NCBI GenBank assembly: GCA_021799275.1
Contig: JAJZAT010000018.1
Coordinates: 661 to 64,660, forward strand
Length of the DNA: 64,000 nucleotides
From: Bacillota bacterium
Lineage (GTDB): Bacteria; Bacillota; Sulfobacillia; JAJZYS01; JAJYTV01
Direction: 5' to 3'
Below the pieces are notes generated by a model. It had not been told where the DNA came from. It did no database searches and was given only the letters and a program-made list of their open reading frames with translations. Position 1 is the stretch's first letter; each line of letters opens with the position of its first letter. This document shows positions 1-15,090 of this stretch, piece by piece. The position numbers and the translations under genes were made by a program.

Positions 1-98
1 ACGTATTCGCTGACGATCTCGAAGCCCTGCGCCGCTGCGAACTCGCGCAAGGGCAGCAGCTGCGTCTGCGGGTCCTGATTCTTATCTGCGGTCGAGAC
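1..98 (-). pseudogene. Serine recombinase (resolvase family), 3' portion; split by transposon, continues off window edge
   Basis: Minus strand from 98 reads VSTADKNQDPQTQLLPLREFAAAQGFEIVSEY, typical sequence after the catalytic Ser of resolvases; an in-frame TAA from the insertion precedes it. Confidence 0.85.
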
Positions 99-114
99 TT
101 ATCCGGCCAATCCG
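99..114 (+). repeat. Left terminal inverted repeat of transposon
   Basis: ttatccggccaatccg; 15/16 match to the reverse complement of 6847-6862. Confidence 0.85.
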
Positions 115-233
115 TGAGCAGGCTCGTGCATACCCACCCGCACACCCATTCCGTCATCCAAAGGGGCTTACGTTGACAGTGATCAGGACACCCTGCGTGT
201 CTTGCATGATCTATTTCGCCTGTGACAGGCACG

Positions 234-1412
234 TCATGGCGAGACAATCAGCTCCCGAACTCCGTGCGACGTACCCAGGATCAGAACCTGGGCGCCGGTG
301 ATCTGCGACCAGCCTCTGTCAAGCGAGGCGGGCTCATTGAGCCTGTATGGGGGCGCGTCAAAGGTGCTGAGGTTGGCGTAGATGAGCTTGCGATGTTCAA
401 GGGGGAAGTTCACGACCATCGTCGTAGGGTCGTCGTAGGGCAGGTAGGCGAAGAAGCCTGGTCCGACACCGAGCAGCGATCCATGGACGTACCATGTCGT
501 GATCCGGCTTGACCCAGGCACCTCGCGCACTACGCGCCAGAAGTACTCGAGGTACGCCGTCGGCCTCGGCACCGACAGCCAAAGGCTACCATCTCCAGCG
601 ATGACCGGGCTACCCTCGGCGTCCCTCAGATAGGGTACACGACCGAGAGGGACCCAACGGGCACTGGTCAGCGACCAGCGAAAGACGTCAGCCCATCTGC
701 TGGAAGTGCCCGACGGAAAGTGCATCTCATAGAGGGTGTCGTCCTCGCCGGTCATCTCGACTGAGTAGTCATAGGGATAGTCATTTGAGACGGGTTGCAC
801 CTGCTGCTGGGGAGGCACGCTCTTCCCCGTGCGCAGGTCGATAGTGCCCTCGCCGTAGTCGACAGGCGGCTCCGAATTCAGTGCGACGGACCAACTCAAC
901 TGGCCCTTGGTTCCTCCGATCTGCCCCGTCGATACGACTACGCGAGCGAGCGGTACGGGGATCCGCACAGGCAGGGGTATTGCCTGAACGGCCCCCTGCG
1001 GGGTGACGAGGTCGAGCGCGTTCGCACGAGATCCTACGGGTCCTGCACAGACCAGGACCGCTTCCGGTCCGCGCGACTGCGCGAACAATGGTTGCTGCAC
1101 ACAAGGGAGCGTCTCGAGTGCCCTCCAGTCTGATCGGCCGAGCGTCTTCGTAGATAGCACGTAGGGTTTGTCGGTGGAGACGCGCAGCAAGGTGTCAGGA
1201 CCCGAGAGCGCATAGGCACCAACCCTTGGGAAGGCCTGCCCGACGACGGCTGCCGGCAGGTTCGCCGCGCGCACTGTGAACGGTCCGACATGCGTCAGCT
1301 GCGACTCGCGTTCCCTGAGCCTATGTGGCGCAGGCGCCCCGCAAGCCGCGAGCAGCACCGCTACCAAAGTGACTGGTAGCCAGGGAACAGCACGAAGAGC
1401 TTGCATTAGCAC
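234..1412 (-). CDS. Hypothetical lipoprotein (transposon cargo)
   Basis: 392 aa ORF, GAGGTGG RBS, lipobox LLAAC after a hydrophobic N-terminus. Confidence 0.7.
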   Translation of the reverse strand: MLMQALRAVPWLPVTLVAVLLAACGAPAPHRLRERESQLTHVGPFTVRAANLPAAVVGQAFPRVGAYALSGPDTLLRVSTDKPYVLSTKTLGRSDWRALETLPCVQQPLFAQSRGPEAVLVCAGPVGSRANALDLVTPQGAVQAIPLPVRIPVPLARVVVSTGQIGGTKGQLSWSVALNSEPPVDYGEGTIDLRTGKSVPPQQQVQPVSNDYPYDYSVEMTGEDDTLYEMHFPSGTSSRWADVFRWSLTSARWVPLGRVPYLRDAEGSPVIAGDGSLWLSVPRPTAYLEYFWRVVREVPGSSRITTWYVHGSLLGVGPGFFAYLPYDDPTTMVVNFPLEHRKLIYANLSTFDAPPYRLNEPASLDRGWSQITGAQVLILGTSHGVRELIVSP

Positions 1413-1441
1413 GCCACCTCAATCCTTATGAATCAACAACT

Positions 1442-2077
1442 CTACTGTGGAATAAGAGAACCTGTCGACTTAGCGCTAGGGAACCCATAAGTTGGTACGC
1501 TGCCTTGCGAGGCAGGCGAGTCGCCGGCCCAATGACGGTACGGGTGACGGAATGGTGTCAACCACAAATGTTTGGTCGGCGCAAAGTTCGGCAATCAACG
1601 ACTACGTAGGCCAGTGGCAGACAAACCTCCAGACATACATAACGACTCCGCACCCGATTCACGAGGAACTCAAGGTGACAGCAACCTTGAATTCTGACGG
1701 ACAGATCGATCCCGGCTCGGTCCAAGTGTTTGAGCTGGCAGATGAGCTCGGCGATGGAGCCCCGTAGCCGCAGTGCTGGCGGCTAGCAAACCCTTCATGA
1801 TGGGTACGTCGGCTGGCGTAGCATAGTTTAGGAGATGCGTTTGGGTCACTACGTACTCAGCCGTGATCGTGGTGGATGTCTGCGACAATGAGGTCTGAGC
1901 GAGTGACTGGCTGTCGATGGTCCAGTGGCGTACACCGGCCTCCTGCGCAAGGAAGTTGTCCGCCGCTGACTCCAATGCGGAAGTCGCCGGTGCAGCAGCG
2001 GTGGCCCCAACGGCTCCGATTGCGACCGACAGCACCAGGGACAAAGCTCCTATGAGCGAGCCGAACTTCTTGTCCAC
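1442..2077 (-). pseudogene. Secreted protein disrupted by an internal inversion (1568-1755)
   Basis: GTG at 2077 with AGGAGG RBS and a signal peptide; the plus-strand fragment (SAQSSAINDY...ELG) reads as its continuation; re-inversion gives one 211 aa ORF. Confidence 0.6.
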
Positions 2078-2163
2078 TGTAGTTCCTCCTCTACGTTTGG
2101 GCCACATGCACATACGGACGCAAGTTGCCACACCTCGGTGATGAAACCACCTCTACGACCAAA

Positions 2164-2340
2164 TCATCCCTGGGGAATGAGCGGACCCGGACCCCCTGGC
2201 GCGTTGCCGCAGGGACCGACACCCCCAGTCGCCGTCACCGAACTCGGCGCCGCTCCGATGGCCTGCACCGCCGACGCCGTCTGCACCGGCAGCAGGAAGC
2301 TTGCAACCCAAAGAAGCGCCAACAGACTTGCCCGCCGCAC
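2164..2340 (-). CDS. Small secreted peptide (58 aa), candidate signalling propeptide
   Basis: GTG at 2340, AAGGCGG RBS-like motif; MRRASLLALLWVASFLLPVQTASA signal peptide plus Gly/Pro-rich tail; divergent from the HTH-TPR regulator. Confidence 0.6.
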   Translation of the reverse strand: MRRASLLALLWVASFLLPVQTASAVQAIGAAPSSVTATGGVGPCGNAPGGPGPLIPQG

Positions 2341-2447
2341 CCTTCCACCCGCCTTCCATGGAAATTCCTGCAGGGGAAGCATGGAGCCGCGGCGAAAGAA
2401 TGTAAATCTTGTTAGCTCTCCAATTTGGTCACACTTGGAGGACTGCC

Positions 2448-3653
2448 ATGCTTGGGCGAGTTCTTCGAGACCACCGGGTCCGGACAGGGCTGAAAGTCGC
2501 CCAGCTTGCGGCTTTGGCGGGGATCCGGCGCGAGACCCTGTCCAGGATCGAAGCGGGTCGCACCCGGGTGGCTGCGGACACCCTCATTAAGCTCACCGAT
2601 TTAATCACGGTTCCGCCAACGGAGTGGGTCAGGCCATGGGTGGAAGAAGAGACCAGTCTCCGCGCTCTACTCTTCATCACCAGGCATCTCATCGACCGGG
2701 GAGAACTTGGTAGCGTCCGCCTCATCTTCGACCGCGTCCGGACCTTGGCACGGCTCAGCCCCAATCACCTCCGCGGCGAGGTCTACCACCAATGGGGGCG
2801 GTACGCCTACGCAGTGGGCTCCTATGGGCGAGCGCTCCACTGGATGAGGCTGGCGGAACGTTCGGCCACGCAATCGTCGGATCCCTATGAAAGGGCCGTT
2901 GCGACGTACAACCGTGCCCTCGCTCTAAGCAGGACGCGCACCATCGCACAGACCGTCGCGAAGTTTGACGCGGCGAGCTCGGGGTTCCAGGACATTGCTC
3001 ACCGGCGCGAACGTGCTTATGCCCAACTGGAACGGGCGAGCTTTCTCTTGAGGATGGGCTCCTATCGCGAGGCGCTGGCAGACTACCGCCACGCCGCCGG
3101 GGATCTGCGCGCCACGCCGTGGTTCTTCGACTGCCGACTTGGCCAAATCATCTGCATCTCCCAGGTCCGCTCTATCAAGACAGCGGCCGGGATTATGCCT
3201 GCGCTCAGTAGCTTGGCGAATGACCCCGAGCGGCAGGCGATGTTTCATCACAACTTCGCAGTCTTCTGTCGACAGCTTGGGCTGCTCGACTGCGCATTGA
3301 CGCATCTGTCCGCGGCGTTGGAAACTGGGACCTCAGACGCCTCGTCGACTGCAGCGACGTTGGCTGAGGCCTGCCTCTGCCGGATCATGGCCGGCGATCA
3401 CCCCGGAGCGCTGCTCGCGTTGGCTCGTTTTGAGTCCCTTCAGGGTTCGAAGGATCCCCAGGACCTTTGGACGATGGCGGCCCTGTCGTTCGTCTTGCGA
3501 GGGGCTTCGCTGGCTATGCCCTCACTGCCCGAGTCACTACGGGATGATCACGAGCACCGTTTAGGAACGGCACTATCGCTGCTGTTGTCCTTCGGTCATG
3601 CCAGTTCGCGAGCGAGTGACAAGGAACTTATCCATCAAGCTAGCAATCACTGA
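2448..3653 (+). CDS. XRE-type HTH plus TPR-repeat transcriptional regulator (RRNPP-like architecture)
   Basis: GGAGG RBS, ATG 2448; HTH LAALAGIRRETLSRIEAG followed by helical TPR-like repeats. Confidence 0.8.
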   Translation: MLGRVLRDHRVRTGLKVAQLAALAGIRRETLSRIEAGRTRVAADTLIKLTDLITVPPTEWVRPWVEEETSLRALLFITRHLIDRGELGSVRLIFDRVRTLARLSPNHLRGEVYHQWGRYAYAVGSYGRALHWMRLAERSATQSSDPYERAVATYNRALALSRTRTIAQTVAKFDAASSGFQDIAHRRERAYAQLERASFLLRMGSYREALADYRHAAGDLRATPWFFDCRLGQIICISQVRSIKTAAGIMPALSSLANDPERQAMFHHNFAVFCRQLGLLDCALTHLSAALETGTSDASSTAATLAEACLCRIMAGDHPGALLALARFESLQGSKDPQDLWTMAALSFVLRGASLAMPSLPESLRDDHEHRLGTALSLLLSFGHASSRASDKELIHQASNH

Positions 3654-5656
3654 TCGAGCAGGACCTTGTCACCATGATGCGCCGCTTCTGTTCCTGTAGG
3701 ATCGGCCGGGCTCTTTAGAAGCGCCTGCAGATTGTCCGCCACATTCTTGTGCCGCCGGACTTCCGTCTCCCAGCCACGCATCGTCGCGTCCCGGATGAGC
3801 AGCGTGACGTCTTCCAGCTGGCGCCGGATCGTCTCCTGCTCCTCCAACAGCGGCAAGAAGGCCGGACAGCGTTCGCAGACGTTGGCGACTGGACAGGCCT
3901 GCTGCGCTAGCTCGCGCAGGCAGTAGCCGTGGGCGAGTCGGGTCTTGAGCTTGCCGCTCTCAATCCAGTTGGAGTCCGGCTCCTCCTTGGATGCGGCCGC
4001 CGCAACCTCGACCATCGCCGGCGAGTACTGGCTCTTCGCTGCGCTGAGCGCTGCCTCGTACTGCTGGCGTACGGTCGCGTCGAAGAGGTTGCCGTAGCGC
4101 AGGCTCATCGTCGCGCTGACGTGTCCGAGCAGCCGCATCAGTGCCGGCAGGCTGATGCCGGCGTTGATCAGGGCCGTCGCGTAGGTGTGGCGGAACTGGT
4201 GGGGGCTGATGTGGATCGGCCGCCCCTTCGCGTCCACGAGGCCGGCAGTCAGCACTGCGCGCCGCAGGGTGTTTCGAATCAGGGCAACGCTGATGCGCCG
4301 GCCGTAGCGCATGAACAGAAACTCGGTGGGGCTGCCGGTCTCGGGGTGCGGCAGCGGCCGCACGGCGCCTCGTGCCTGCGCGACAGCGTCGAACATCGCC
4401 ACCGTCTCCTCGTCGATCGGCACCATGCGCTCCGTGCGCAGCTTGCCGAGCGGCACCTTGAGCCAGGCTCCCTGGCCCGGCACCTGGTGCACGCAGTCGA
4501 GTTCGAGGTTTAGGAGTTCGCCGACGCGCAGTCCCGTGGCGCGCAGGATCTCCAGCGGGTAGCGCTGGAAGGGGGCCTGCAGCGTGTGGATCGCGGCCAT
4601 CAGCCGCGCTTCCTGCTCATGCGGGATGAAGCGTGGCAGGGGCTTGTCCCGTTTCGGGACGTCGCTCGCGAAGAGCAGCCGCCTCTTGGGCGCCTCCGCC
4701 CAGCCCCATTCGGTGATGGTGTCGAGAAAGTACTTGACGTCCAGCACTGCGTGCTGACGGTCTCGCGCGCTGTAGCGCTGCGGCGCGCCGCCTGGCGGCG
4801 TCCACTCGCGCGTCGCGTTCCAGATGAGGTACGGCTCGATGTGCGCGTCCCGGCGCAGATCACCGACGTTCTCCACCTCAGGGTGGTGCTCCGCGAGGTA
4901 GCGGGCGAACGGCACGAGCAAGTGGCAGTAGCCGATCACCGTCGAGGCGCGCCGCGTCGTGGCCATCTGTTCGACGTAGCGCAGCATCGTGGCCTTCAAC
5001 CCCGGCTGCGGCACGCCTTGGAGGTAGCCGGCCCACGAGTGCTCACGCGCGTGGCCGTGGGGCGTGGGCTGCTCGAAGACTCCCAGGTGGTAGAGCACGG
5101 TCTCCGCCGCGAAGACGTGCAGGCGCCAGTAGCCGCCGTCGCGACCCGTCTCCCGCTCCCAGACCTCCGTGGCCCTGCGGAACTCCCGAAAGTCTTCGGG
5201 TGTCAACTCGCGCAGGCGCTTGCCGGTCTGCACCAGAACGCGCATCAGCACCTCAGTCAGCAGGCTTTGGATCAGAAAGGGGGTGAACCCGAGCTGCGGG
5301 GCGATCGCGGTCACCGCGGCGACGTCCTCCGCGTAGGGCGAGTGCGGCGCCAGCCGCACGAGCTGCGGATGGTGCGAGAAGAGGTAGGCGTAACCGGGCC
5401 TCAGGTGACTGTGCAGGAGCAGATAAGAGACGAACGAGTTCTCACTTTGTAGGAGGTCCCCAAGCGCCGTGGCCACCGTGGGGCTTTGCCAGTCGAGACC
5501 GTCGAGGCGGTCAAGCAGCGCCCTCGCGCCGCGCATGCGCTGGTACCTGGACTGGTACGAAAGGCCGAGCCTCAGGGTGAAGTCCGCGTAGTCTGCGAGT
5601 ATCGCGGCGGCGTCCGGACGGGTTGGTACTTCCGTCTTGGCTCTACTCGCCGCCAT
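3647..5656 (-). CDS. Large tyrosine recombinase, Tn554 TnpB-like
   Basis: TGLRVGE, HQFRH, LGH..Y catalytic motifs; C-terminal LAHGYC...C...NVCERCPAF Cys motif. Confidence 0.9.
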   Translation of the reverse strand: MAASRAKTEVPTRPDAAAILADYADFTLRLGLSYQSRYQRMRGARALLDRLDGLDWQSPTVATALGDLLQSENSFVSYLLLHSHLRPGYAYLFSHHPQLVRLAPHSPYAEDVAAVTAIAPQLGFTPFLIQSLLTEVLMRVLVQTGKRLRELTPEDFREFRRATEVWERETGRDGGYWRLHVFAAETVLYHLGVFEQPTPHGHAREHSWAGYLQGVPQPGLKATMLRYVEQMATTRRASTVIGYCHLLVPFARYLAEHHPEVENVGDLRRDAHIEPYLIWNATREWTPPGGAPQRYSARDRQHAVLDVKYFLDTITEWGWAEAPKRRLLFASDVPKRDKPLPRFIPHEQEARLMAAIHTLQAPFQRYPLEILRATGLRVGELLNLELDCVHQVPGQGAWLKVPLGKLRTERMVPIDEETVAMFDAVAQARGAVRPLPHPETGSPTEFLFMRYGRRISVALIRNTLRRAVLTAGLVDAKGRPIHISPHQFRHTYATALINAGISLPALMRLLGHVSATMSLRYGNLFDATVRQQYEAALSAAKSQYSPAMVEVAAAASKEEPDSNWIESGKLKTRLAHGYCLRELAQQACPVANVCERCPAFLPLLEEQETIRRQLEDVTLLIRDATMRGWETEVRRHKNVADNLQALLKSPADPTGTEAAHHGDKVLLDQ

Positions 5657-6734
5657 GCTGTTCACCCGCCTTCACGCGTTGGAGAGCCCGGTCGTACTCC
5701 TCGCGCAGGTGCTGTGCCGTGAGGTGGATGTAGACGAGGCTGCTCTCGATGTGGGCGTGGCCCATGAGGTCCCGCAGCACATGCGCGTCGACGCCGGCCT
5801 GCGCCAGATTGGTCGCGTAGGTGTGCCGCAGGCGATGAGGGTTCCCTGACGGCACGCCCGACCGCAGGCGGTGGTAGCGGAAGATCCGGCGCAGTCCCGC
5901 GGGCATCAGGGGCCTCCCACGGTGGGGACCCTTGGCAGCGAGGAAGATCTGGGGTTCCTCCGACTCCGGTCGCTCGTAGAGGATGTAGCGCTGCACGAGC
6001 CGCAGGGCATCTGCGTCCATCGGCACCACCCGCTCGCGTCCGCCCTTGCCCCAGACGCGCACCTTGCCGCCGGGGAGGTCGAGGTCCTCCATCTGCAGGC
6101 TCAGTAGTTCGCTCGAACGCAGGCCGCCGTACAGCATGAGGAGCGCGATGGCCTTGTCCCGCAGCGTGCGAAAGCTCCCAACGAGACGCTCCACCTCGGC
6201 CGGGCTGAGGCTTCGCGGCAGCCGCTGCGGGGCTTTCAGGCGCAGCTCGCTCCTCGTGACGCGCCGCCGGATGTGGCCGAGGAGCCCGTAGGGCGCTACC
6301 GCCCAGGCGCGGCTCACCTGCCCATGCGGCACCGGATTGCGAGGCATGCTCTCCGGATCGATGCGCAAAAGGTGCTCGTAGAAGCCGTAGATCGCCGCAA
6401 GGCGGCGGTTGATCGTCGCAACCGCGACGCCGCCGGCGCGGCCGTCCTGCAGGCGGTAGACGTTCCTGCCTGGCCGCTGCGGGTTCTCGCGCCGCTTCTC
6501 CCACTCGATGTACCCGAGGAGATCCTGGGTCGTGACCTCCTGGACCTCCTTGCCGGTCGCCTCGAGCCAGCGCCAGAAGGCGAGCAGGTCGTAGGCATAG
6601 GCGCGCACGGTGTGGCGCGAAAACCCGCGCGTCGCGACGTAGCGCAGGTATCCGGCGATGGCCTCGACCTCGTTGCCCACCTCGTCCACGACTGCCCAGA
6701 ACGGCTCCTCTTCGCGTCCCACTACCCGGAGCAT
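5643..6734 (-). CDS. Tyrosine recombinase, Tn554 TnpA-like
   Basis: GLRSSE, GKGGRER, HRLRH, MGHA..Y motifs; overlaps the downstream recombinase; ATG 6734. Confidence 0.9.
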   Translation of the reverse strand: MLRVVGREEEPFWAVVDEVGNEVEAIAGYLRYVATRGFSRHTVRAYAYDLLAFWRWLEATGKEVQEVTTQDLLGYIEWEKRRENPQRPGRNVYRLQDGRAGGVAVATINRRLAAIYGFYEHLLRIDPESMPRNPVPHGQVSRAWAVAPYGLLGHIRRRVTRSELRLKAPQRLPRSLSPAEVERLVGSFRTLRDKAIALLMLYGGLRSSELLSLQMEDLDLPGGKVRVWGKGGRERVVPMDADALRLVQRYILYERPESEEPQIFLAAKGPHRGRPLMPAGLRRIFRYHRLRSGVPSGNPHRLRHTYATNLAQAGVDAHVLRDLMGHAHIESSLVYIHLTAQHLREEYDRALQRVKAGEQHGGE

Positions 6735-6813
6735 GACGCACCCCCTCGCCCCCTGGTGCTTTCGGCCTACGGCCTCCGGCACCAGGGGAGCCTCCCGGAG
6801 CTCTCCCGAGGTC

Positions 6814-6842
6814 ATGCTATCCGCCTTGGAAGGAAGCGTCAA
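6814..6842 (-). promoter_or_regulatory. Sigma-A-like promoter for the transposon recombinases
   Basis: TTGACG-N17-TAGCAT just inside the right inverted repeat. Confidence 0.55.
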
Positions 6843-6846
6843 AGTC

Positions 6847-6862
6847 CGGATTGGCCGGTTAA
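6847..6862 (-). repeat. Right terminal inverted repeat of transposon
   Basis: cggattggccggttaa, followed by a 6-bp spacer ctgaac before the target resumes. Confidence 0.85.
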
Positions 6863-6868
6863 CTGAAC

Positions 6869-6892
6869 TCTCGCATAGATCGCGGTGCGCAC
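6869..6892 (-). pseudogene. Serine recombinase, 5' portion (MRTAIYAR)
   Basis: GGAGGG RBS, then GTG CGC ACC GCG ATC TAT GCG AGA; joins in frame to VST at position 98. Confidence 0.85.
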
Positions 6893-7365: not shown

Positions 7366-7710
7366 TTACCTCTCCAATACGGCGACCTCCCGGTGCTCGC
7401 GCGCGGCCACGTGCGCCCGCACTGCCTCCATCCGATCGATCATCTCGCCGGCGACCGCCTGGATCGCGGCACTCGCCTGCTTGACGAGCGCGGGCCCGCC
7501 TTCGTCCCGGCTCCAGTTGGCCACATAGCCGAAGCTGTAGTCCGACGTGTCGAGCCCGAAGCGGCTGCAAACCACGAAGGCCACACCCTCCGCCTCGGCC
7601 TCTTCCGTCGGGCGCCCTGGCTCCCGGCCGCGGCCGTGCTCCAGCAGGTGGTGCCCGAGTTCATGCGCGAGCGTCTTGGCCTGCTGGTCCGGCGCGATCG
7701 CGCTCTTGAT
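7366..7710 (-). pseudogene. ArdC/ImmA-IrrE-like metallopeptidase C-terminal fragment (5'-truncated)
   Basis: KTLAHELGH...EAEAEGVAFVVCSRFGLDTSDYSFGYVANW motif; no N-terminal domain or RBS. Confidence 0.75.
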
Positions 7711-7990
7711 CGTGCTGTGGGTGGTCATCACCATTCCAGGCTACGGCGTTGGCCTTGCGATGGTCGTCCTGAACCCGCTCCAAATCTGGGTCGGGGTCGT
7801 GCTTTCCTTCTCGGTGTGGGCGTCTCTCCATGGTCACACCTCGCCGGAGGAGTTTCATCTTCATCCAGCCGTGCTGGGGAGGCCAGGGGATGGCCGTGTG
7901 GTGGCCGTGCTGAAGCCGCTGACGATCCACGGAGAACCCGGCGCGATTGCAGGTCTCGGCGAAAATCTCAAAGGGTCCAGCCCAAGTTGA
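7709..7990 (+). pseudogene. Membrane protein fragment lacking its 5' end (start lies across the inversion at 10198)
   Basis: High-GC3 frame IVLWVVITIPG...GSSPS whose TGA overlaps the TTG start of the prepilin peptidase. Confidence 0.5.
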
Positions 7991-8469: not shown

Positions 8470-9009
8470 GTGCCCACGGCGCGCCAGAACGCACTGCCGA
8501 AGGGCCTGACCACGATGTGGGACATCGGCACCTCGAGCCAACCATCCCGGGCTCGGCCCAACGTCACAGAGGGGCGCCGCGCACTCTCCCAGAGGGGGAA
8601 CCATTGCTCCACCGGGGCCAAGAAGATGCTGTTCACCGGCCACCAGGCGACTGCCAGGAACTCGGTGCCGTGGGGCTCTCCACACAACAGCACCCCTACG
8701 AAGTCCACCACAACGCCGACCAATCCCACGTCCTCCACCGCTTCGAGCCAGGGAGGAACATCGATAGTCGCCCCTCCTGAGCCGCCTCCTCTCATCGACC
8801 CGCACCCTCCGCAGCACTACCAGCAGAACCTGCAAGGCCAGATGCAGACGGCGGCAGGCTCGGCGGGGACCTCGCACAGGAAGACAACGGCTCTCCCGTG
8901 GTGGCCGTGGGCGGCAGGTGTCCTCATCGTTCTGGTCGTCGCAGTATGGCAGTACCGCTCTTGGCAGCGGCGCAGGCTCTACAATCTCGGGCGACCTGGG
9001 AGGCAATGA
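8470..9009 (+). CDS. Hypothetical membrane-anchored Ser/Thr/Pro-rich protein (5' end uncertain)
   Basis: S/T/P-rich linker, C-terminal TM plus basic tail; stop overlaps the next ATG. Confidence 0.45.
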   Translation: MPTARQNALPKGLTTMWDIGTSSQPSRARPNVTEGRRALSQRGNHCSTGAKKMLFTGHQATARNSVPWGSPHNSTPTKSTTTPTNPTSSTASSQGGTSIVAPPEPPPLIDPHPPQHYQQNLQGQMQTAAGSAGTSHRKTTALPWWPWAAGVLIVLVVAVWQYRSWQRRRLYNLGRPGRQ

Positions 9010-10169
9010 TGCGCTGGCGCTGGATATCCGCTCTCGGAGCGTTGGCCGCACTCGTGCTGGCGCTGCCGACCGCGCAAGCCCAAGACATTCCGATGTACGA
9101 CGTGACCACGACGAGGCAACGGGTCGTGGTCGATCCGTCCGTAGGGCAGCACCAGTTGTACCTGTCGATGCCGCTCATCCTGGGCCACGAATCTGGCGAG
9201 GCCAGTCTTTCCACGCCCACCGTGATCGGCCAAGACCTCTATCAGTACACCTACCAAGGCAGCACCGGCATCCTCCGTCAGTGGCAGTTACCGCAGGAGA
9301 ATGCGGGTTCTCTCCTGCAACACTACGCGGGCGTGAATCTGCCGAGCAGCGTGTCAGCGAACGCCCAACTCCTGAACCATCTCCCCTTCTCGGTGGGCAC
9401 CTACAGTGCGGCAGGGCAGGATTCCCTCGCGACCAACGCCGGCTGGCAGGCCATCGCGGTCGGCCAGTACCTCTATTGGTGGCGTGACGGAACGTGGCCG
9501 AGCAGCGCGAACGCCGCCGCCCATGTCCACATCTACGGCAACCCGAACGACACGCTCAATCAGGTGGATATGAGCCCCCTGATAACGCCTCCTATCAAGG
9601 TCGACGTCCTCGACGCTGGCGGTAACGAGACCACCGTCACCACGCCAGTCGCGGTCGCTTGTTCATGGAACGGCGGGTGTGCCATGCAGCCGCTTGGCTT
9701 GCCTGCGAGCGACTGGGTGCTCTACCAGAACTACTACACCACCAGGGACTACTCGAACGATGGCGGTGCAGCGATCACCTCCGACCCCACCTACATCCCG
9801 TCCGAACCTCTCTTTGATGGGCATCCAGCCGTGGTCTTCGGGATCGCGTCGCCTTCGCACCCTCGGTTTGAGATGATCGACCTCACCACAGGGCAGTATC
9901 GCGCCGTGGGCGTCGGGACGATCAGCGGTCAGGTGGCCGACACCGTCGTCTATGACCAGAGCGCTAACTTATTGATTGCCCAGGACATCTGGGGTGCGCT
10001 CTACGTGCTCAACCTTCACGGCGCACGCGAGGGAGTCTGGGGTGGCGCGGGTTGGATCAATGAGCCGAGTCCAATCCTGGGGCAGGATATGAGCTTTGAC
10101 CCCAAAACCCAACGGATCCTTGCAATAGGTGGCGGGGGCACCACTCTCGGCATGTTCACGGACATGTAG
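9006..10169 (+). CDS. Secreted beta-rich surface protein, probably 3'-truncated
   Basis: Signal peptide MRWRWISALGALAALVLALPTAQA; ends abruptly at a strand-switch junction. Confidence 0.6.
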   Translation: MMRWRWISALGALAALVLALPTAQAQDIPMYDVTTTRQRVVVDPSVGQHQLYLSMPLILGHESGEASLSTPTVIGQDLYQYTYQGSTGILRQWQLPQENAGSLLQHYAGVNLPSSVSANAQLLNHLPFSVGTYSAAGQDSLATNAGWQAIAVGQYLYWWRDGTWPSSANAAAHVHIYGNPNDTLNQVDMSPLITPPIKVDVLDAGGNETTVTTPVAVACSWNGGCAMQPLGLPASDWVLYQNYYTTRDYSNDGGAAITSDPTYIPSEPLFDGHPAVVFGIASPSHPRFEMIDLTTGQYRAVGVGTISGQVADTVVYDQSANLLIAQDIWGALYVLNLHGAREGVWGGAGWINEPSPILGQDMSFDPKTQRILAIGGGGTTLGMFTDM

Positions 10170-10381: not shown

Positions 10382-11443
10382 CTAGCCGCCTCCCTTCTCG
10401 GGCTCGATCGTGATGCTGGCCGTGGCGCTGTGCCCGCCGGGCCACCTGGCGGTGACCCGGTAGGTGGCCGATCCTCGCACCCGGATGGCGAACGCCTGCT
10501 CACCCGGCCAGAGCGGCGCGTCTTGCGGGGACAGCGCCATGGGGCGGCCGTTCGCGGTGACGGAAGCGGGCAGGGTTAGGTCGCGGCCGGTGAGCGGGTC
10601 ATGCTGCCGAACGCAGGTGGTCACAGGCTTGCTGGTCTTCGGGTCTGTAGCGGTCTTGCAGACCGTCTTGCCAGGCTTCCACGGTACCGAGAACCTCGCG
10701 CCATAGGGGCCTGCCGCCGCGACGACGAGCCAGACCTGCTGACTCCTCCGCGCCTCCCACTGGTCGTTGCGGTAGTCCGCCGTGCTCCACACGGCGATGG
10801 TCGGGCCCGCCTCGTAGGCGGTGAGGTAGGATCGAACCGACTCCGGGTAGGCGGCGTCGAACGAGGCCTGGCCGCCAGAGCCCGAATTGTACGCCTCCAA
10901 GGCGAACTTGAGGTACTTGTACTGCCGCAACTCGGCCTTCAGCTGGCCAACGCCGGCGGCGATGTTCTTGCCCGGGTCGAACGGATCTTGAGCGATGCCG
11001 AGGGACTGCCACTTCGCGGCCTTCTCGGGTGCGGGCCACCCTCCCGAGTTGATCTGCATGAGCCCCGCATCTTCGGAAAGCGTCTGCGTGCCGGGGTAGG
11101 CCTGGCCGCACTGCTCGCTGGCAGACAGCCCATCAGTGCAGTTGAAGTTCACGGCCAGCACCTGTCCACCGCTCTCGTGCGCCATGACGGCCATGACAAG
11201 CACGTTCGGCAGGCTTAAACCTGTGATCGCAGGCTTACCAAGCCAGAGCGCCGGCCTCGCCTCCGCCGTGCCGATCGGCGGCACCGTCGAGTCCGTGCCG
11301 GTTGCCCCACCGCCCAGGAAAACGGCGATCGCGGACATGAAGATCACGAACAGGACGATGAGCAGCAGCGGCAGCCCGAGCCCCGCACCGATCACCCAGC
11401 GCAGAGCCTTGTTGCCGCCGACCTGCAGGGCCTCCCTAGCCAA
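10382..11443 (-). CDS. Lytic transglycosylase (VirB1-like, SLT domain)
   Basis: AHESGG, AGLMQIN, EAYNSG motifs; N-terminal TM. Confidence 0.85.
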   Translation of the reverse strand: MAREALQVGGNKALRWVIGAGLGLPLLLIVLFVIFMSAIAVFLGGGATGTDSTVPPIGTAEARPALWLGKPAITGLSLPNVLVMAVMAHESGGQVLAVNFNCTDGLSASEQCGQAYPGTQTLSEDAGLMQINSGGWPAPEKAAKWQSLGIAQDPFDPGKNIAAGVGQLKAELRQYKYLKFALEAYNSGSGGQASFDAAYPESVRSYLTAYEAGPTIAVWSTADYRNDQWEARRSQQVWLVVAAAGPYGARFSVPWKPGKTVCKTATDPKTSKPVTTCVRQHDPLTGRDLTLPASVTANGRPMALSPQDAPLWPGEQAFAIRVRGSATYRVTARWPGGHSATASITIEPEKGGG

Positions 11444-11483
11444 GTCGCGCTGTTCGTCCGTGACGCGTCACCTCCTTCCATCG

Positions 11484-11517
11484 AAAAAGCCTCCCGGGCC
11501 AGAGGGCCCGAGAGGCT
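11484..11517 (-). terminator. Intrinsic terminator
   Basis: AGCCTCTCGGGCC CTCT GGCCCGGGAGGCT TTTT. Confidence 0.7.
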
Positions 11518-11553
11518 CATGGGGTTTCTGCGCGAATCGTGGCTATTCTGTGG

Positions 11554-12327
11554 TCACAGTTCGAGATCCCCATCGCGCGCAGGCTTGCGAGGCGGAATAC
11601 GGCCTGCTGGACGGTTGGGCGGCGCGGAAGATTCTCGCGCCGGGCTGCTACTGAGGACCCTGGAGACGACGCCCACTTCCGGGATGTGCCGCACCTCCGT
11701 CGACGCCCGTACCAGTGCAGCCCGCTCCGCAGACCCCACGGTGTCAAGGTTGCCGTCGCCGAAATAGGTCAGTGCCCGGAGACTCTCGGTGGGTTGGAAG
11801 GATACGCCGTAGAGCGCCCGCGCCGCACCGAGGCCCTCCGGGAGGTTCATGCCTGCCCGGAGCAGCGCAGCGAGATCCCGGTAGTCCTTTGCCTCGGCCC
11901 GTTGCGTGATGACCGCCAGCTTGGTTGCCATGAGATCGAGCAGCGACGCCACCTGCAACACGCCGTCGCTGCTGATGTCAGGCTCGCCGACGCGTCCGAA
12001 CTGCATGCCGCCGAAGAATGAAAGGTTCACGGGCGCATCTGCTCCGGAGTCGGAGGTCGATTGCAGAGACACCGAGAGGGTGTCCGGCCGGTCCAGAAGG
12101 GTTGCAGCTGGACCCAAGGGCGCGAGGGCTGCCCGCAACGTAGCCTTGTCCAGTGGGCGGTCGCTGAAGAAATCGAAATCGACCGATTGGCGGTTGCCGA
12201 GTCTCAGGGCGATGGCCGTGCCTCCGTAGAGGACGAAGCCCAGACGGGTCACCGGTTGCAGTCCGGGCCACACACGCCGCTGCTGAGCGGGCAGCACCTC
12301 GAAATGCGGTGTGAACGGTGCACTCAT
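11554..12327 (-). CDS. AbiEii/AbiGii-family nucleotidyltransferase toxin
   Basis: LYGGTAIALRLGNRQSVDFDFF and TKL...R...KDYRD motifs. Confidence 0.85.
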   Translation of the reverse strand: MSAPFTPHFEVLPAQQRRVWPGLQPVTRLGFVLYGGTAIALRLGNRQSVDFDFFSDRPLDKATLRAALAPLGPAATLLDRPDTLSVSLQSTSDSGADAPVNLSFFGGMQFGRVGEPDISSDGVLQVASLLDLMATKLAVITQRAEAKDYRDLAALLRAGMNLPEGLGAARALYGVSFQPTESLRALTYFGDGNLDTVGSAERAALVRASTEVRHIPEVGVVSRVLSSSPARESSAPPNRPAGRIPPRKPARDGDLEL

Positions 12328-12668
12328 GCTAATGCCCGCCGTGGCAGCGGCGGGACGGCGCCGAGGTCACAGAGGCCGAGGCGATAGTGCCAGTAGTGCC
12401 AGGAGCGCTCGTCGAACCAGCCGGCTTGCGCATGGGTAACCACGTCGCGCAGCATCGCGTCGCCCAGGAGCCGCGCGATCCGCTCGATGTCGTCGAAGTC
12501 GCCCATGTTCATCGTCCTGGCAATCACCCGTTCAGGGTAGATAGCGGCTTCTTCCGGCGTCTCCCACCAGACGTAGCGCGCCACGATGGCCCGCCAGGTC
12601 TGGTCGTCGATGCGACCCCGGATGAACGCGAAGCTGGACGGTTTAGCCGTCTGTTCCAGTCGGGACAC
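12324..12668 (-). CDS. Putative antitoxin (DUF6922-like) paired with the AbiEii toxin
   Basis: YVWW...RVIARTMNMGDFDD...SWHYWHYRL; ATGA overlap with the toxin; upstream TATACT -10. Confidence 0.7.
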   Translation of the reverse strand: MSRLEQTAKPSSFAFIRGRIDDQTWRAIVARYVWWETPEEAAIYPERVIARTMNMGDFDDIERIARLLGDAMLRDVVTHAQAGWFDERSWHYWHYRLGLCDLGAVPPLPRRALA

Positions 12669-12733
12669 ACGGGGCACCCCCTTGTGGCGAGTATAGCCTA
12701 AGAGAACCTGCCAGACCGGAAAATCCAAGAGTC

Positions 12734-12928
12734 TCACGCTAGCTGCTGCACAGTCCGACTCCGGCGCCGCTGGGCCAGCGCGGCCCGCGCCGCACGGCGC
12801 CTCTGCAGAGCGGCAAGACGCCGCAGCGCGCCTTCGGCGGCTGCAAGCGAACGACTGCCGCGGCTGCGCAGCAGGCGCACACGGTCCTGAAGCGCCACGA
12901 TGGCCTCCACGAGGTCGGCGTCCGTCAT
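12734..12928 (-). CDS. Small basic helical hypothetical protein
   Basis: 64 aa, GGGGGTG RBS. Confidence 0.5.
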   Translation of the reverse strand: MTDADLVEAIVALQDRVRLLRSRGSRSLAAAEGALRRLAALQRRRAARAALAQRRRSRTVQQLA

Positions 12929-12942
12929 GCGATCACCCCCAG

Positions 12943-12985
12943 CAAAGGCAGCAGCCCTCCCCGGCCGTGTTGGCCTGGGAGGGCT
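12943..12985 (-). terminator. Terminator-like hairpin after virB4
   Basis: AGCCCTCCCAGGCC AACAC GGCCGGGGAGGGCT. Confidence 0.45.
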
Positions 12986-13091
12986 CAGTCTCGCTGTTCA
13001 GCGGTCGCGGCGCCAGGGATCGGCGCCCATAGAAGGGCAGTACGGTGGCTCCACGCGCCGACGCAACGAGGTAGCCATCCAACCGGATCGG

Positions 13092-14879
13092 TTAGCCGTA
13101 CATGAGCGCCGTCTCGTGCGGCGCCGTGTCGATCTTGACCCACGCGCGGTGATTGCCGGCAATCAGGAGGCCCTCGCCGCGCCGTGCACCGCGCAGCTTC
13201 TCCTGCTCGGCCTCCGAGAGCCGGAAGAGCGCGGCGACAGTCGGCAGGTCCTTCGCCTCCTGGCGCAGGAGGATCTTCGTCGAGGCGTTAGCCAGCACAG
13301 GCTCGCCCTCACGAGCCACCTCGGGCGCCAGAAAGTCGACGGCGTTCTGGGTGACGACATTCACCGAGCAGCCATACTTGCGCGCGCGCTTGGACATGCG
13401 CTTCAAAAACCCGAGCGCCTGCGGCACGTTCGGATCGACCAGCATCCACGCCTCGTCCACGACGAGCATCTTGCGCTCGCTGCGGTCCCGACGGATGAGA
13501 TCCCAGGCAAAGCCGAGCACATTGGCGTACTGGGCGCGCTGCACGTTTTCGGGCGCGTTGTCGAGGTCATGGATGTCGAGCACCACGAGGTCGGCATCCG
13601 GCATGGCCACGCTCGGCCCGGCCCAAAGCCCGGCATCGGTGCCAATCGCGGCATCCTCCAAAAGTGCGGCCAAGCCCTGCCACTCCGCACCCTCCTGGCG
13701 CTCGGCGTAGGCATGGAGGTGACCGACATGCGGCCATGCGTCAGGTGCGATGGTGGCCGGGTCGGCATGGAGGGGAATCCCGGCCTCGTCGTACACGGCC
13801 CGAATGGCGCGGGCGAGCAGAGCCTTCTGCATCTCGGTGAGGCCGGGAAGGTAGAGGTCGAGCACGAGGCGCACGCGCTGGATGTGCTGTGCGATGGCCA
13901 GGACGTTCGCATCTTCGTCTTCGTCATCCTCTCGTGGAAGAGGCGGCGCCTGTAGCAGATTGATGCGCTGTCCGCCGCCGCCGGCGTTGACCCAGGCGCC
14001 GTGCAGCTCCCGGCAGAGGTGACGGTACTCGCGCTCGGGGTCGATAATCACGACCCGCACGCCCATGGCCCAGAGGCGCAGAATGAGGAGCTTCATCGCG
14101 TGCGACTTGCCGACGCCAGGCGTCGCAAGCACGGTTACGTGCTGGTTTGCGATCCCGGCATCCGGGGGCGGGGCAAAGGTGTCGAGCAGCACCAGGCCGC
14201 CCGAGGTGTCGTGCCCAAGCACGACGCCGTGGCCGTGGTTGATGCCGCCCGAGGAGAACGGGAAGCTCGCCGCGAGCGTCTCGGCGGGAAGCTGGAACGG
14301 CGCGGTGCCTTGCAGCTCCTTGGGGAAGAGGCCCCAGGGACCGACCGCCCTCATGCCGTCCTCCTGCTTGAACGCGAGCGGCCGTGCGCGCATGCCAGCC
14401 GCGGCGAGCATGCCTTCGAGACGCTTGCAGCGCCGCAGGCCCGTCGCCTCATCGGGCGCCGTGACGAGGGCGAACACGCCGACGGTGAATACGCTCTGCT
14501 GCTCCTGGTCGATCTTGCGCAGCAGGCCCTGGGCGTCCTGGATCTGCTGCTCCATACGCTGCTGCGAGATGGCCGAGCCGCCCTGCGCGAGCTGTCCCGC
14601 GAGCAGGGAGATCGCGCGGCTCATGGCGAGGGTGATCTGCGTCGGGTCGGTCGGCAGGGCGTGGACGGAGAGCGTCACCCCTTCGAGGTTCGCCACCGTT
14701 GCGAGCCAGCCGGCGTCGACGCTCGGTGGGAAGCTCGCCACGGTGTAGACGCGGCCCCACTGGGAACCGAGATCCACGGCCCTGCGCTCGAAGAGCAGGG
14801 CCTCGGGCGCGAAGGCGTTGCGCAGCGCGGCGCCCGGCGTTGCCGTGGTGGTCGCATGCTTCTTGGGCACGGTAGTCAC
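13092..14879 (-). CDS. VirB4-like conjugation ATPase
   Basis: Walker A ATPGVGKS, IIDPEREY, VVDEAW, RARKYG...TQN motifs. Confidence 0.92.
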   Translation of the reverse strand: MTTVPKKHATTTATPGAALRNAFAPEALLFERRAVDLGSQWGRVYTVASFPPSVDAGWLATVANLEGVTLSVHALPTDPTQITLAMSRAISLLAGQLAQGGSAISQQRMEQQIQDAQGLLRKIDQEQQSVFTVGVFALVTAPDEATGLRRCKRLEGMLAAAGMRARPLAFKQEDGMRAVGPWGLFPKELQGTAPFQLPAETLAASFPFSSGGINHGHGVVLGHDTSGGLVLLDTFAPPPDAGIANQHVTVLATPGVGKSHAMKLLILRLWAMGVRVVIIDPEREYRHLCRELHGAWVNAGGGGQRINLLQAPPLPREDDEDEDANVLAIAQHIQRVRLVLDLYLPGLTEMQKALLARAIRAVYDEAGIPLHADPATIAPDAWPHVGHLHAYAERQEGAEWQGLAALLEDAAIGTDAGLWAGPSVAMPDADLVVLDIHDLDNAPENVQRAQYANVLGFAWDLIRRDRSERKMLVVDEAWMLVDPNVPQALGFLKRMSKRARKYGCSVNVVTQNAVDFLAPEVAREGEPVLANASTKILLRQEAKDLPTVAALFRLSEAEQEKLRGARRGEGLLIAGNHRAWVKIDTAPHETALMYG

Positions 14880-14911
14880 TCCTTCCTGATAATCACCGAG
14901 GGTTCAGCAAC

Positions 14912-14936
14912 AGAGAAAGCCGCCCGTCTGGGCGGC
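14912..14936 (-). terminator. Intrinsic terminator downstream of the ICE tRNA
   Basis: GCCGCCC AGAC GGGCGGC TTTCTCT. Confidence 0.6.
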
Positions 14937-14947
14937 CTCGTTGAATT

Positions 14948-15023: not shown

Positions 15024-15053
15024 GCACGCCAGCTTACGATCCGGCGCACCCTC

Positions 15054-15082: not shown

Positions 15083-15090
15083 CCAGGCGC

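What the first reader, a model, noticed from the sequence alone, without database searches (positions are those of the whole stretch)
1..6892. Tyrosine-recombinase transposon inserted exactly in the catalytic YARVS motif of a serine recombinase gene
Seen: on the minus strand an RBS and MRTAIYAR (6892-6869) rejoin in frame with VSTADKNQDPQTQL (98-1) once 99-6868 is removed. The insert has 16-bp inverted repeats (15/16 match) and two tyrosine recombinases, with no target duplication beyond 3 bp (ACT). Known: Tn554-family elements insert site-specifically into conserved genes such as radC, and RIT elements have inverted repeats and three recombinases. Inference: this is a two-gene hybrid (TnpA/TnpB-like, no TnpC) that uses the conserved RVS codons of resolvase genes as its att site. 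That would let it ride on ICEs and plasmids while disabling their recombinase.
Basis: partly seen in the sequence, partly recalled or inferred. Interest (0 to 1): 0.85.

Follow-up and report, generated by a model that had tools for sequence, protein, structure and literature searches.

The report
Tn554-like transposon splitting a resolvase gene
A 6.8-kb mobile element driven by two tyrosine recombinases sits exactly at the catalytic-serine codons of a resolvase gene, and its wider family turns out to sit habitually inside the active-site codons of other mobile elements' transposase genes.

Summary
Removing window 99-6868 rejoins MRTAIYAR with VSTADK... into a 201-aa serine recombinase. Its remainder lies left of the window, and an intact 89.6%-identical ortholog exists in a sister genome.

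The insert is a Tn554-superfamily transposon:
- 16-bp inverted ends (15 of 16), the only two copies of the motif in the genome;
- a TnpA-like (363 aa) and a TnpB-like (672 aa) tyrosine recombinase;
- no TnpC found;
- 3.6 kb of cargo.

The idea that resolvase RVS codons are its attachment site is only partly supported. Its closest relatives lie in a ParB gene, a MerR/TipAS gene and unidentified DNA. One further copy shows only 9 flanking bases reading YAR.

The wider pattern is more striking. Of 86 distinct flank clusters, 66 lie in transposase genes of other insertion sequences, always at the same conserved motif. A 6-bp element-borne spacer shares only its first two bases with the target (53 of 69 pairs; shuffled mean 20).

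I found no paper describing this target habit.

The parts
6869..6892 (-). 5' end of the split serine recombinase gene (M/V-RTAIYAR). RBS GGAGGG lies at 6904-6899. An alternative in-frame ATG lies at 6898.
   Evidence: ortholog L214 reads MALRVAIYAR at this place
6863..6868 (-). 6-bp element-borne spacer (GTTCAG on the gene strand). It is not part of the target or of the repeat. Its first 2 bases (GT) equal those of the target 6-mer at 98-93.
   Evidence: the same or a one-base-different 6-mer is seen in L112, L246, L111, L097 and L110 at other targets
6847..6862 (.). recombinase-proximal terminal inverted repeat (TTAACCGGCCAATCCG on the gene strand)
   Evidence: the TTAACCGGC core is conserved across related elements
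5643..6734 (-). small tyrosine recombinase, 363 aa, TnpA-like
   Evidence: Pfam Phage_integrase plus SAM-like N domain; 27% identity end to end with Tn554 TnpA, E 2e-42; R206, K230, H300, R303, H326 and Y335 are invariant in alignment A2
3647..5665 (-). large tyrosine recombinase, 672 aa, TnpB-like, overlapping the small gene by 23 nt
   Evidence: Pfam Phage_integrase 346-527; 23% over 460 aa with Tn554 TnpB, E 5e-33, including the C-terminal Cys cluster; R375, H489, R492, H515, Y524 and C591, C597, C600 are invariant and C582 is nearly invariant (90% or more) in A1
2409..3653 (+). cargo: XRE-type HTH plus TPR regulator, 414 aa, shared with the 94% relative L110 only
   Evidence: Pfam HTH_31/HTH_3 and TPR hits; own versus L110 elements align over positions 1-4699 at 94.6%
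1670..2131 (-). cargo ORF, 153 aa, no family assigned
   Evidence: not shared with L110 or L111
234..1412 (-). cargo ORF, 392 aa, hydrophobic N-terminus with LLAACG, no family assigned
   Evidence: not shared with L110 or L111
99..114 (.). distal terminal inverted repeat (TTATCCGGCCAATCCG on the + strand)
1..98 (-). 3' part of the split serine recombinase gene, starting at V9-S10 (catalytic serine). It continues 582 nt in all to contig position 177, left of the window.

Best explanation
What it is. Window 99-6868 is one insertion of 6,770 bp. It consists of a 6,764-bp transposon of the Tn554 superfamily bounded by 16-bp imperfect inverted repeats, plus a 6-bp element-borne spacer at the recombinase-proximal end. 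The element encodes an overlapping pair of tyrosine recombinases: a 363-aa TnpA-like protein, and a 672-aa TnpB-like protein with a C-terminal four-cysteine cluster. It has no TnpC. It carries 3.6 kb of passenger genes. It has split a 201-aa small serine recombinase gene between Arg8 and Val9 of YAR|VS, one codon before the catalytic serine. That gene sits next to conjugation genes.

How it most likely works (inferred). The two recombinases bind the inverted ends and join them into a circle of the form end - 6-bp spacer - end. The circle recombines with a target whose 6-bp crossover region need match the spacer only at its first two bases (GT in this lineage). Exchange of one strand pair followed by replication, or biased resolution, would leave the element's spacer at the proximal junction and the target's own 6 bp at the distal junction. 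That explains the absence of a duplication, and it means excision could restore the gene exactly.

Target choice. This lineage's choice is loose rather than resolvase-specific. The family as a whole lands at conserved catalytic-motif codons of other mobile elements' transposase or recombinase genes. The resolvase hit is one instance of that habit.
For: Shown:
- Anatomy and rejoining of the gene, and an intact ortholog.
- The end motif occurs only at the two ends in the genome.
- Homology of both recombinases to Tn554 TnpA and TnpB taken from a real Tn554 copy, and to the long recombinase of pREL1 listed by Van Houdt 2012 (PMC3414803, passages read).
- The TTAACCGGC inverted ends are shared by relatives from Actinomycetota, Bacillota, Chloroflexota and metagenomes.

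Junction rule:
- In 71 loci with both ends, the borne and target 6-mers agree at positions 1-2 in 85% and 86%, and at positions 3-6 in 17-34%.
- 53 of 69 distinct pairs share the first two bases. Shuffled mean 20.0, maximum 31 in 1000 shuffles.
- All 6 right flanks of the own lineage begin with GT.
- The borne 6-mer stays the same or differs by one base across different targets and genomes.

Targets:
- Of 86 flank clusters (102 loci with 40 nt or more of flank), 66 lie in transposase genes of other insertion sequences. One each lies in a tyrosine recombinase, a serine recombinase and a ParB gene. 17 are unclassified.
- Pfam confirmation on representatives: rve broken at profile position 100-101 of 102, Transposase_mut at 337/379, DDE_Tnp_ISL3 at 225/240, DDE_Tnp_1, Phage_integrase at 154/172, ParB_N, HTH_Tnp_1, Mu-transpos_C_2.
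- 75 of 81 classed insertions have the same orientation as the target gene.
- Target class is clustered on the small-recombinase tree: 38 changes against 60.5 shuffled, as low in 0 of 200 shuffles.

Mobility:
- The same element (99.95% over 4,011 nt) has different flanks in two genomes.
- Cargo differs between relatives beyond a shared 3.14-kb core.

Precedent: a 6-bp spacer or footprint without duplication is described for Tn554 relatives and SEs (PMC10214605, passages read).
Against: - No circle junction or empty site was seen. The public runs are held only as assembled contigs, and none joins across 99-6868.
- The element is single-copy here, and a near-identical site in another serine recombinase gene of the same genome is unoccupied. 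Current activity is therefore unproven.
- The 94% relative has a TAG inside its large recombinase.
- 16 of 69 junction pairs break the two-base rule. These include all 4 counted IS256-targeting loci and the ISL3 one.
- Target arms resemble the element's ends only weakly: 3.6 of 12 bases against 2.6-3.3 in controls. How the site is recognised is therefore unexplained.
- In SEs and Tn554 the 6 bp is reported to move from one side to the other at each hop. Here it looks constant within a lineage, so the mechanism cannot simply be copied from them.
- Target classes were assigned by motif patterns that I wrote from recalled transposase signatures. Pfam was checked only on one or a few representatives per class.
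- Loci are not all independent events.
Confidence: 0.75

Rival explanations
1. One reading: the element is strictly site-specific for the YxRVS codons of resolvase genes, which serve as its attachment site.
For: - The window's insertion lies exactly at YAR|VS.
- L097, an 83% relative, shows 9 flank bases TATGCGCGC (YAR) before its spacer. These are identical to the YAR codons of resolvase genes in G071 (L228) and in the own genome (L006).
- The ParB site of L111 resembles a resolvase site at the DNA level, 11 of 16 bases by eye.
Against: - Of 7 insertions of the own lineage, one lies in ParB_N, one in MerR/TipAS, and three in DNA without a family hit.
- L097's 9 bases also align to the ParB flank of L111 with a 2-nt gap.
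- No resolvase hit (tblastn, E up to 1e-3) appeared in the 30 loci printed.
- A matching site in the same genome is empty.
Confidence: 0.08
2. The element is a domesticated excisable intervening element. Regulated precise excision restores the resolvase gene and so switches the host conjugative element, like the skin or nifD elements (recalled comparison).
For: - The insertion is in frame and leaves the target's own 6 bp intact at the distal junction. Excision could therefore rebuild the gene exactly.
- It carries its own HTH-TPR regulator.
- The target lies beside T4SS genes.
Against: - Relatives with the same recombinases sit in unrelated genes.
- The regulator is shared only with one relative.
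- An ortholog of the resolvase exists uninterrupted in a sister genome.
- No excised form was seen in the contigs laid.
Confidence: 0.07
3. Insertion is essentially random, and only copies in harmless places (other mobile elements' genes) survive selection.
For: Insertions in redundant transposase genes cost the host nothing. The own lineage shows varied targets.
Against: - Within each target family the break falls at the same codon positions. All 31 IS3-type cases fall at the G-x-x|x-DN...E motif, all 28 IS481/Mu/IS21-type cases before P..GK.E, and all 5 IS256 cases before ERLN.EI.RR.
- Orientation is fixed in 75 of 81.
- The two-base rule holds.
Confidence: 0.03

Closest known systems
Tn554 (Staphylococcus / Enterococcus; copy on E. 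faecium plasmid p268-2 read here as L229)
   Same: - Gene order is small then large tyrosine recombinase.
- Both proteins are homologous, including the C-terminal Cys cluster of TnpB.
- There is no target duplication and a 6-bp junction sequence (PMC10214605).
- Insertion is in a conserved catalytic-motif region of a gene often carried by mobile DNA. In L229 the JAB/RadC gene is cut just after HNHPSG (my translation).
   Different: - The window's element has no TnpC/DUF6262, although 60 of 117 related loci have one.
- Its ends are clear G+C-rich 16-bp inverted repeats. No TTAACCGGC core was seen at the Tn554 ends read by eye.
- The target is not radC.
- The 6-mer appears constant rather than copied from the previous site.
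- Cargo is not resistance genes.
Actinobacterial Tn554-related tandem recombinase transposons (Van Houdt et al. 2012, PMC3414803; Famint41/36 type without TnpC, e.g. pREL1)
   Same: One roughly 350-aa and one 611-828-aa recombinase lie adjacent in the same direction, and some lack TnpC. The window's large protein is 32% identical to the pREL1 long one.
   Different: - In the passages I read, that paper gives no ends, no spacer and no insertion-site pattern.
- The host here is a Bacillota relative (best named hits are Thermaerobacter MAGs), not an actinobacterium.
- The element carries cargo.
[quoted passage not shown]
   Same: [quoted passage not shown]
- 13-19-bp imperfect inverted ends.
- A 6-bp spacer in the circle and no duplication.
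- One SE insertion into an IS3-family gene (insJ) is reported.
   Different: - SEs have four core genes (intA, tfp, intB, srap); here the two recombinase genes overlap with nothing between them.
- SE hosts are Gammaproteobacteria.
- In SEs the spacer changes sides at each move.
RIT (recombinase in trio) elements
   Same: Tyrosine recombinases between inverted repeats, about 3.5 kb.
   Different: RIT elements have three recombinases of 315-410 aa. This element has two, one of them 672 aa.
Tn5053/Tn402 'res hunters', and group II introns or homing elements that nest in other mobile DNA (recalled, not tested)
   Same: The target is a conserved feature of another mobile element, so the element travels with its carrier.
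   Different: The enzymes differ (DDE transposase; reverse transcriptase or homing nuclease). Those elements hit res sites or other DNA, not the catalytic codons of the recombinase gene by tyrosine recombination.

Membership tests
Tn554 superfamily | TnpA-type small tyrosine recombinase | tested here: met
   27% identity over 357 aa with TnpA of L229, E 2e-42; Pfam Phage_integrase plus SAM-like domain
Tn554 superfamily | TnpB-type large tyrosine recombinase (about 630 aa) encoded directly downstream | tested here: met
   23% over 460 aa with TnpB of L229, E 5e-33, including the GYC...CP.AN.C..C region; the genes overlap by 23 nt
Tn554 superfamily | TnpC (DUF6262) third gene | tested here: not met
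   No DUF6262 hit on the element's ORFs scanned. No tblastn hit (E up to 1e-3) with five TnpC-like queries in own, L110, L111, L097, L099, L015, L118 or L112. It is present in 60 of 117 related loci. In Pfam, 5 of 5 tested hit DUF6262 and 1 of 5 is over the cut-off.
Tn554 superfamily | no target duplication; 6-bp junction sequence | tested here: met
   The behaviour of the 6-mer (constant versus copied from the previous site) could not be tested.
Tn554 superfamily | insertion at att554 in radC | tested here: not met
   The target is a serine recombinase gene. Tn554 itself sits in a JAB/RadC gene in L229.
Actinobacterial two-gene Tn554-related class (Van Houdt 2012) | adjacent short (about 350 aa) and long (611-828 aa) recombinases, same direction, no TnpC partner | tested here: met
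   paper passages. The host phylum differs.
RIT elements | three adjacent tyrosine recombinase genes | tested here: not met
   Only two recombinase genes lie between the repeats.
SE (strand-biased circularizing integrative elements) | four core genes intA-tfp-intB-srap | tested here: not met
   No gene lies between the two recombinase genes. No TnpC/Srap-like ORF was found. Strand bias is not testable with these tools.
Small serine recombinase (resolvase/invertase) - the target gene | N-terminal Resolvase domain with YxRVS catalytic serine, and a C-terminal HTH | tested here: met
   PF00239 positions 7-144 on the 3' part. The 5' part supplies MRTAIYAR. The ortholog L214 has Resolvase 1-144 plus a weak, sub-threshold HTH_28 hit (E 0.00095, 19.6 bits against a cut-off of 25).

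The most novel reading that the evidence does not exclude
A large, widespread branch of the Tn554 superfamily consists of hyperparasites of other mobile elements. They are compact elements of 3.1-3.5 kb with TTAACCGGC inverted ends. They home, in a fixed orientation, into the DNA that encodes the catalytic motifs of other elements' recombinases: rve, IS256, ISL3 and IS4 transposases, a tyrosine recombinase, and here a serine recombinase. They need only a 2-base match, and they keep their own 6-bp spacer. They would thus both disable and hitch-hike on insertion sequences, plasmids and conjugative elements. This would be the transposon counterpart of inteins and homing introns that occupy active-site codons.
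Probability: 0.5. Interest if true: 0.8.

Novelty: new variant of a known kind. Interest (0 to 1): 0.65.

Why it matters
- It gives ends, a junction rule and a target habit to a class of two-recombinase transposons that was so far described only by gene content.
- If the target habit is real, these elements are natural antagonists and passengers of insertion sequences and conjugative elements. That bears on how transposable-element loads are kept in check.
- It would explain many 'truncated transposase next to two integrases' annotations. For example, the Arthrobacter aurescens TC1 genome paper lists two truncated IS256 transposases beside three Tn554-related genes (PMC1713258, passage read).
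- A tyrosine-recombinase system that integrates with only a 2-base match, without duplication and reversibly, is also of mechanistic interest.
- For this window the practical point is annotation. The resolvase is a split gene, not two pseudogenes, and 99-6868 is one mobile unit with cargo.

Tried and rejected
- Public runs. Nine runs are listed, and no RNA holder is listed. Four runs were laid, all held as assembled contigs. One contig of X3 covers 57-707 without a difference, which is the same insertion in another sample of the same study. No contig joins across 99-6868 and none shows an end-to-end joint. This cannot speak to excision.
- Target arms versus element ends. Agreement is 3.6 of 12 bases, against 2.6-3.3 in controls. 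This is too weak to explain recognition. Only a loose A.CGGC resemblance appears in the consensus.
- Flanks of L110 and L112: no Pfam family. The L241 flank: none. The short flanks of L118/L015 and L099: none. My guess that these are TnpB-type genes of IS607-like elements rests only on a resolvase gene next to L118 and on motifs read by eye. It is not claimed.
- More copies of the own lineage. The end motif is absent from 5 further related genomes, which are 76-95% complete. It gave 0 hits in viral contigs. In 401 sampled genomes of the phylum it matched only the own genome and two genomes of one other genus, which on inspection are chance matches inside an ordinary gene with no recombinase beside them.
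- BIM elements (one recombinase plus an unrelated protein) and RIT elements were considered and rejected on gene content.
- Loci L040-L094 were dropped before all counts. These are 55 of 80 loci, at most 35% identity and mostly partial matches to other recombinase families.
- Supplementary tables of Van Houdt 2012 could not be seen and may list positions of such elements.
- Six literature searches found no paper on transposase-gene targeting by Tn554-like elements. Subscription journals are not covered.

Full report
**1. The observation**

On the minus strand a ribosome-binding site (GGAGGG, 6904-6899) precedes GTG at 6892. Codons 6892-6869 read M/V-RTAIYAR, after which the frame runs into VQLTGQSGL and a stop. 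Window 98-1 reads VSTADKNQDPQTQLLPLREF....

The window starts at base 661 of contig C22. The frame continues into those 660 bases for 193 residues in all. That part matches Pfam Resolvase positions 7-144 of 145. Removing 99-6868 therefore rebuilds a 201-aa small serine recombinase with Y6-A-R-V-S10.

A sister genome holds an uninterrupted ortholog, L214. It is 89.6% identical, carries Resolvase 1-144 plus a weak, sub-threshold helix-turn-helix hit, and reads MALRVAIYAR|VSTTDRDQ at this place.

The inverted repeats are real: 99-114 and 6847-6862, 15 of 16 complementary. Their 13-nt core occurs exactly twice in the 3.14-Mb assembly, at these two ends, and the reversed control gives none.

**2. 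Anatomy**

Read on the gene strand, the order is:
- resolvase 5' end;
- a 6-bp stretch, GTTCAG (6868-6863);
- the proximal repeat;
- a 363-aa tyrosine recombinase (6734-5643);
- an overlapping 672-aa tyrosine recombinase (5665-3647);
- cargo;
- the distal repeat (114-99);
- resolvase 3' part.

Both recombinases hit Phage_integrase. Both keep the catalytic arginines, histidines and tyrosine as invariant columns among relatives.

The cargo is an XRE-HTH/TPR protein (2409-3653, + strand) and two ORFs without a family.

The neighbourhood to the right holds a TraG-like ATPase, TrbL, an SLT transglycosylase, an A24 peptidase and an AbiEii toxin. The split resolvase therefore lies at the edge of a conjugative element.

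**3. Family**

A real Tn554 copy on an Enterococcus plasmid served as reference. It has tnpA of 361 aa, tnpB of 630 aa, tnpC annotated DUF6262, ant(9)-Ia and erm(A), and it lies next to a JAB/RadC gene.
- The small protein is 27% identical end to end with TnpA (E 2e-42).
- The large one is 23% identical over 460 aa with TnpB (E 5e-33), including the C-terminal cysteine cluster.
- It is 32% identical with the long recombinase of pREL1. Van Houdt et al. 2012 list pREL1 among actinobacterial Tn554-related tandems, some without TnpC (PMC3414803, passages read).

The element thus belongs to a kind described in 2012 by gene content. In the passages I read, that paper gives no ends or insertion sites.

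Many relatives of 3.4-3.5 kb carry a third small gene. In Pfam it hits DUF6262 in 5 of 5 tested, with 1 of 5 over the cut-off. By tblastn, 60 of 117 loci have it, but none of the 8 loci of the window's own clade.

**4.

Relatives came from three searches that took no account of flanks.
- Genome contigs with an alignment of the large protein: 517 relatives, best 80 kept. I used the 25 full family members L015-L039 and dropped 55 weaker ones.
- A class-wide scan of 210 genomes: 12 with a match, 7 of 9 in the own family.
- Metagenome contigs with an alignment of the small protein: 291 relatives, best 80 kept, all used.

That makes 117 loci in all. Ends were found through the conserved TTAACCGGC motif and its inverted partner, and 106 loci have at least one end.

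Classed by junction motif:

| Target class | Loci |
|---|---|
| IS3-type rve genes, just before (Y/W/F)DN...E | 31 |
| IS481/Mu/IS21-type rve genes, before P..GK.E | 28 |
| IS256-type, before ERLN.EI.RR | 5 |
| HTH_21 region of rve transposases | 4 |
| IS4/IS1634-type | 3 |
| IS3 orfA | 3 |
| IS30 | 3 |
| ISL3 | 1 |
| ParB | 1 |
| YxR\| (the window, and L097 with only 9 flank bases) | 2 |
| Unclassified | 23 |
| No flank held | 2 |

I wrote the motif patterns from recalled transposase signatures. Pfam on representatives agrees:
- rve broken at profile position 100-101 of 102;
- Transposase_mut at 337/379;
- DDE_Tnp_ISL3 at 225/240;
- DDE_Tnp_1;
- Mu-transpos_C_2 just downstream;
- HTH_Tnp_1;
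- a Phage_integrase gene cut at 154/172;
- ParB_N.

Loci whose flanks are 85% or more identical were then merged. That leaves 86 clusters from 102 loci: 66 in transposase genes of other insertion sequences, one each in a tyrosine recombinase, a serine recombinase and a ParB gene, and 17 unclassified. Of 81 classed insertions, 75 have the orientation of the target gene.

A broader version of it holds: homing to catalytic-motif codons of other mobile elements' recombinases.

**5. The window's own lineage**

These are elements with ends TTAACCGGCCAAT(A/C)CGG and a borne 6-mer GTTC(A/C/T)G. Seven insertions are known.

| Locus | Relation to the window's element | Target |
|---|---|---|
| window | - | resolvase, YAR\|VS |
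| L111 | 83% | ParB_N gene, ...VVHNVRK\|RFDEEG |
| L097 | same element as L111, 99.95% over 4,011 nt | contig starts 15 nt before the repeat; 9 flank bases read YAR |
| L110 | 94%, 7,439 bp | no family hit |
| L112 | decayed copy | no family hit |
| L246 | 1,034-bp internally deleted copy | MerR/TipAS regulator gene |
| L241 | right end only | no family hit |

L097's 9 flank bases are identical to the YAR codons of resolvase genes L228 and L006. They also align to the ParB flank of L111 with a 2-nt gap. That case is therefore inconclusive.

All six right flanks begin with GT.

A second serine recombinase gene of the same genome (L006) has a site almost identical to the occupied one and is empty.

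The lineage carries variable cargo behind a shared 3.14-kb core. The HTH-TPR gene is shared only with L110.

Of 69 elements with both ends, 66 are 2.9-3.8 kb. The only three larger ones (5.6, 6.8 and 7.4 kb) are of this lineage.

**6. The junction rule and the likely mechanism**

In every rebuilt gene the frame closes only if the 6 bases next to the proximal repeat are left out. Those 6 bases are nearly constant within a lineage across different targets. Examples are TGCCTG, CCCCGC and CCTCTC, and GTTCAG here. They do not look like target 6-mers.

Compared with the target's own 6 bases next to the distal repeat:
- They agree at positions 1 and 2 in 85% and 86% of 71 loci, and at positions 3-6 in 17-34%.
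- 53 of 69 distinct pairs share the first two bases, against a shuffled mean of 20.0 and a maximum of 31.
- The 16 exceptions include all 4 counted IS256-targeting loci and the ISL3 one.

I read this as a 6-bp crossover region in which only the two bases beside one cleavage point must pair. Exchange of one strand pair then follows, and replication or biased resolution completes it. That would place the element's spacer at the proximal junction and the target's at the distal one. It would make no duplication, would keep the spacer through successive moves, and would allow exact restoration on excision.

The anatomy and the statistics are shown. The circle, the strand bias and present activity are inferred.

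SEs and Tn554 relatives are reported to have a 6-bp spacer or footprint without duplication. There, however, the 6 bp moves from one side to the other at each hop (PMC10214605, passages read). The constancy seen here would be a difference.

Target arms hardly resemble the element's ends, so what recognises the site is unknown. On the small-recombinase tree the target classes are clustered: 38 changes against 60.5 shuffled, as low in 0 of 200 shuffles. Yet identical proteins occur at different targets (L097/L111 and L126/L127). This fits recognition of short DNA features rather than of a gene as such.

**7. What could not be shown**

No evidence for or against excision could be had from public runs, which are held only as contigs. 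More copies of the own lineage were not found.

**8. Comparison and novelty**

The element is a member of the Tn554 superfamily in its two-gene form. Membership is met for both recombinases, for gene order and for the absence of duplication. It is not met for TnpC or for the radC site. It is not a RIT, SE or BIM element.

In the literature I could search (six searches) the following appear to be undescribed:
- the defined TTAACCGGC inverted ends;
- the retained 6-mer with a two-base rule;
- the family-wide habit of sitting in the catalytic-motif codons of other elements' transposase genes.

One genome paper lists two truncated IS256 transposases beside three Tn554-related genes without comment (PMC1713258). 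In the Tn554 copy read here, the radC-like gene is likewise cut right after its HNHPSG motif.

That the conserved residues near the break are catalytic is recalled textbook knowledge, not tested here. This applies to the glutamate of the DDE triad in rve and IS256 enzymes and to serine 10 of resolvases.

**9. Verdict**

The window's element is a new member, with cargo and without TnpC, of a known kind. The family-level target habit and junction rule make it a new variant worth following up.

Noticed in passing
window 1526-1576: A 51-bp stretch inside the cargo is 100% identical to stretches of two other contigs of the same assembly, one near a contig end (C2:76-126) and one at C47:102104-102154. 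Contigs of public runs break with loose ends at exactly 1526 and 1576. This suggests a short dispersed repeat.
   Followed up: no
window 7366-7734 (-), 10382-17292, 11554-12327 (-): Right of the split resolvase lie an ImmA/IrrE-type M78 peptidase, T4SS-type genes (SLT, TraG-like ATPase, TrbL), an A24 leader peptidase and an AbiEii toxin. The region looks like a conjugative element.
   Followed up: partly
L246 (G071:C93:7714-8747): A 1,034-bp copy has both ends and the GTTCAG spacer but no recombinase genes, and sits inside a MerR/TipAS gene. It looks like a non-autonomous, MITE-like derivative of the window's lineage.
   Followed up: partly
L229:2160-2218 and 8930-9035: In the Tn554 copy on the E. 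faecium plasmid, the upstream JAB/RadC gene ends ...SHNHPSGYELT at the transposon, and the RadC C-terminus (GIELLDHIIVTS...) resumes beyond it. Tn554 itself therefore splits its target just after a catalytic motif.
   Followed up: partly
window 3647-5665 (-), residues 582-600: The large recombinase has a cysteine cluster (C591, C597 and C600 invariant; C582 nearly invariant, 90% or more) and a conserved GYC motif. These are shared with Tn554 TnpB and may form a zinc-binding module of unknown role.
   Followed up: no
L006 (G000:C47:94278-94715): A 470-aa serine recombinase gene of the same genome has a YAR|VS site almost base-for-base like the occupied one, yet it is empty.
   Followed up: partly
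L230 (pREL1 262701-263174): On pREL1 a 157-aa 'DDE-type integrase/transposase' fragment is annotated about 1.7 kb upstream of the recombinase pair. It may be another split transposase. Ends were not looked for.
   Followed up: no
L111 element positions 3331-5508; window 18163-20259 (-): The 83% relative carries a 726-aa ORF as cargo that was not scanned. The window itself has an S9/DPP-IV peptidase gene outside the element. No link was tested.
   Followed up: no
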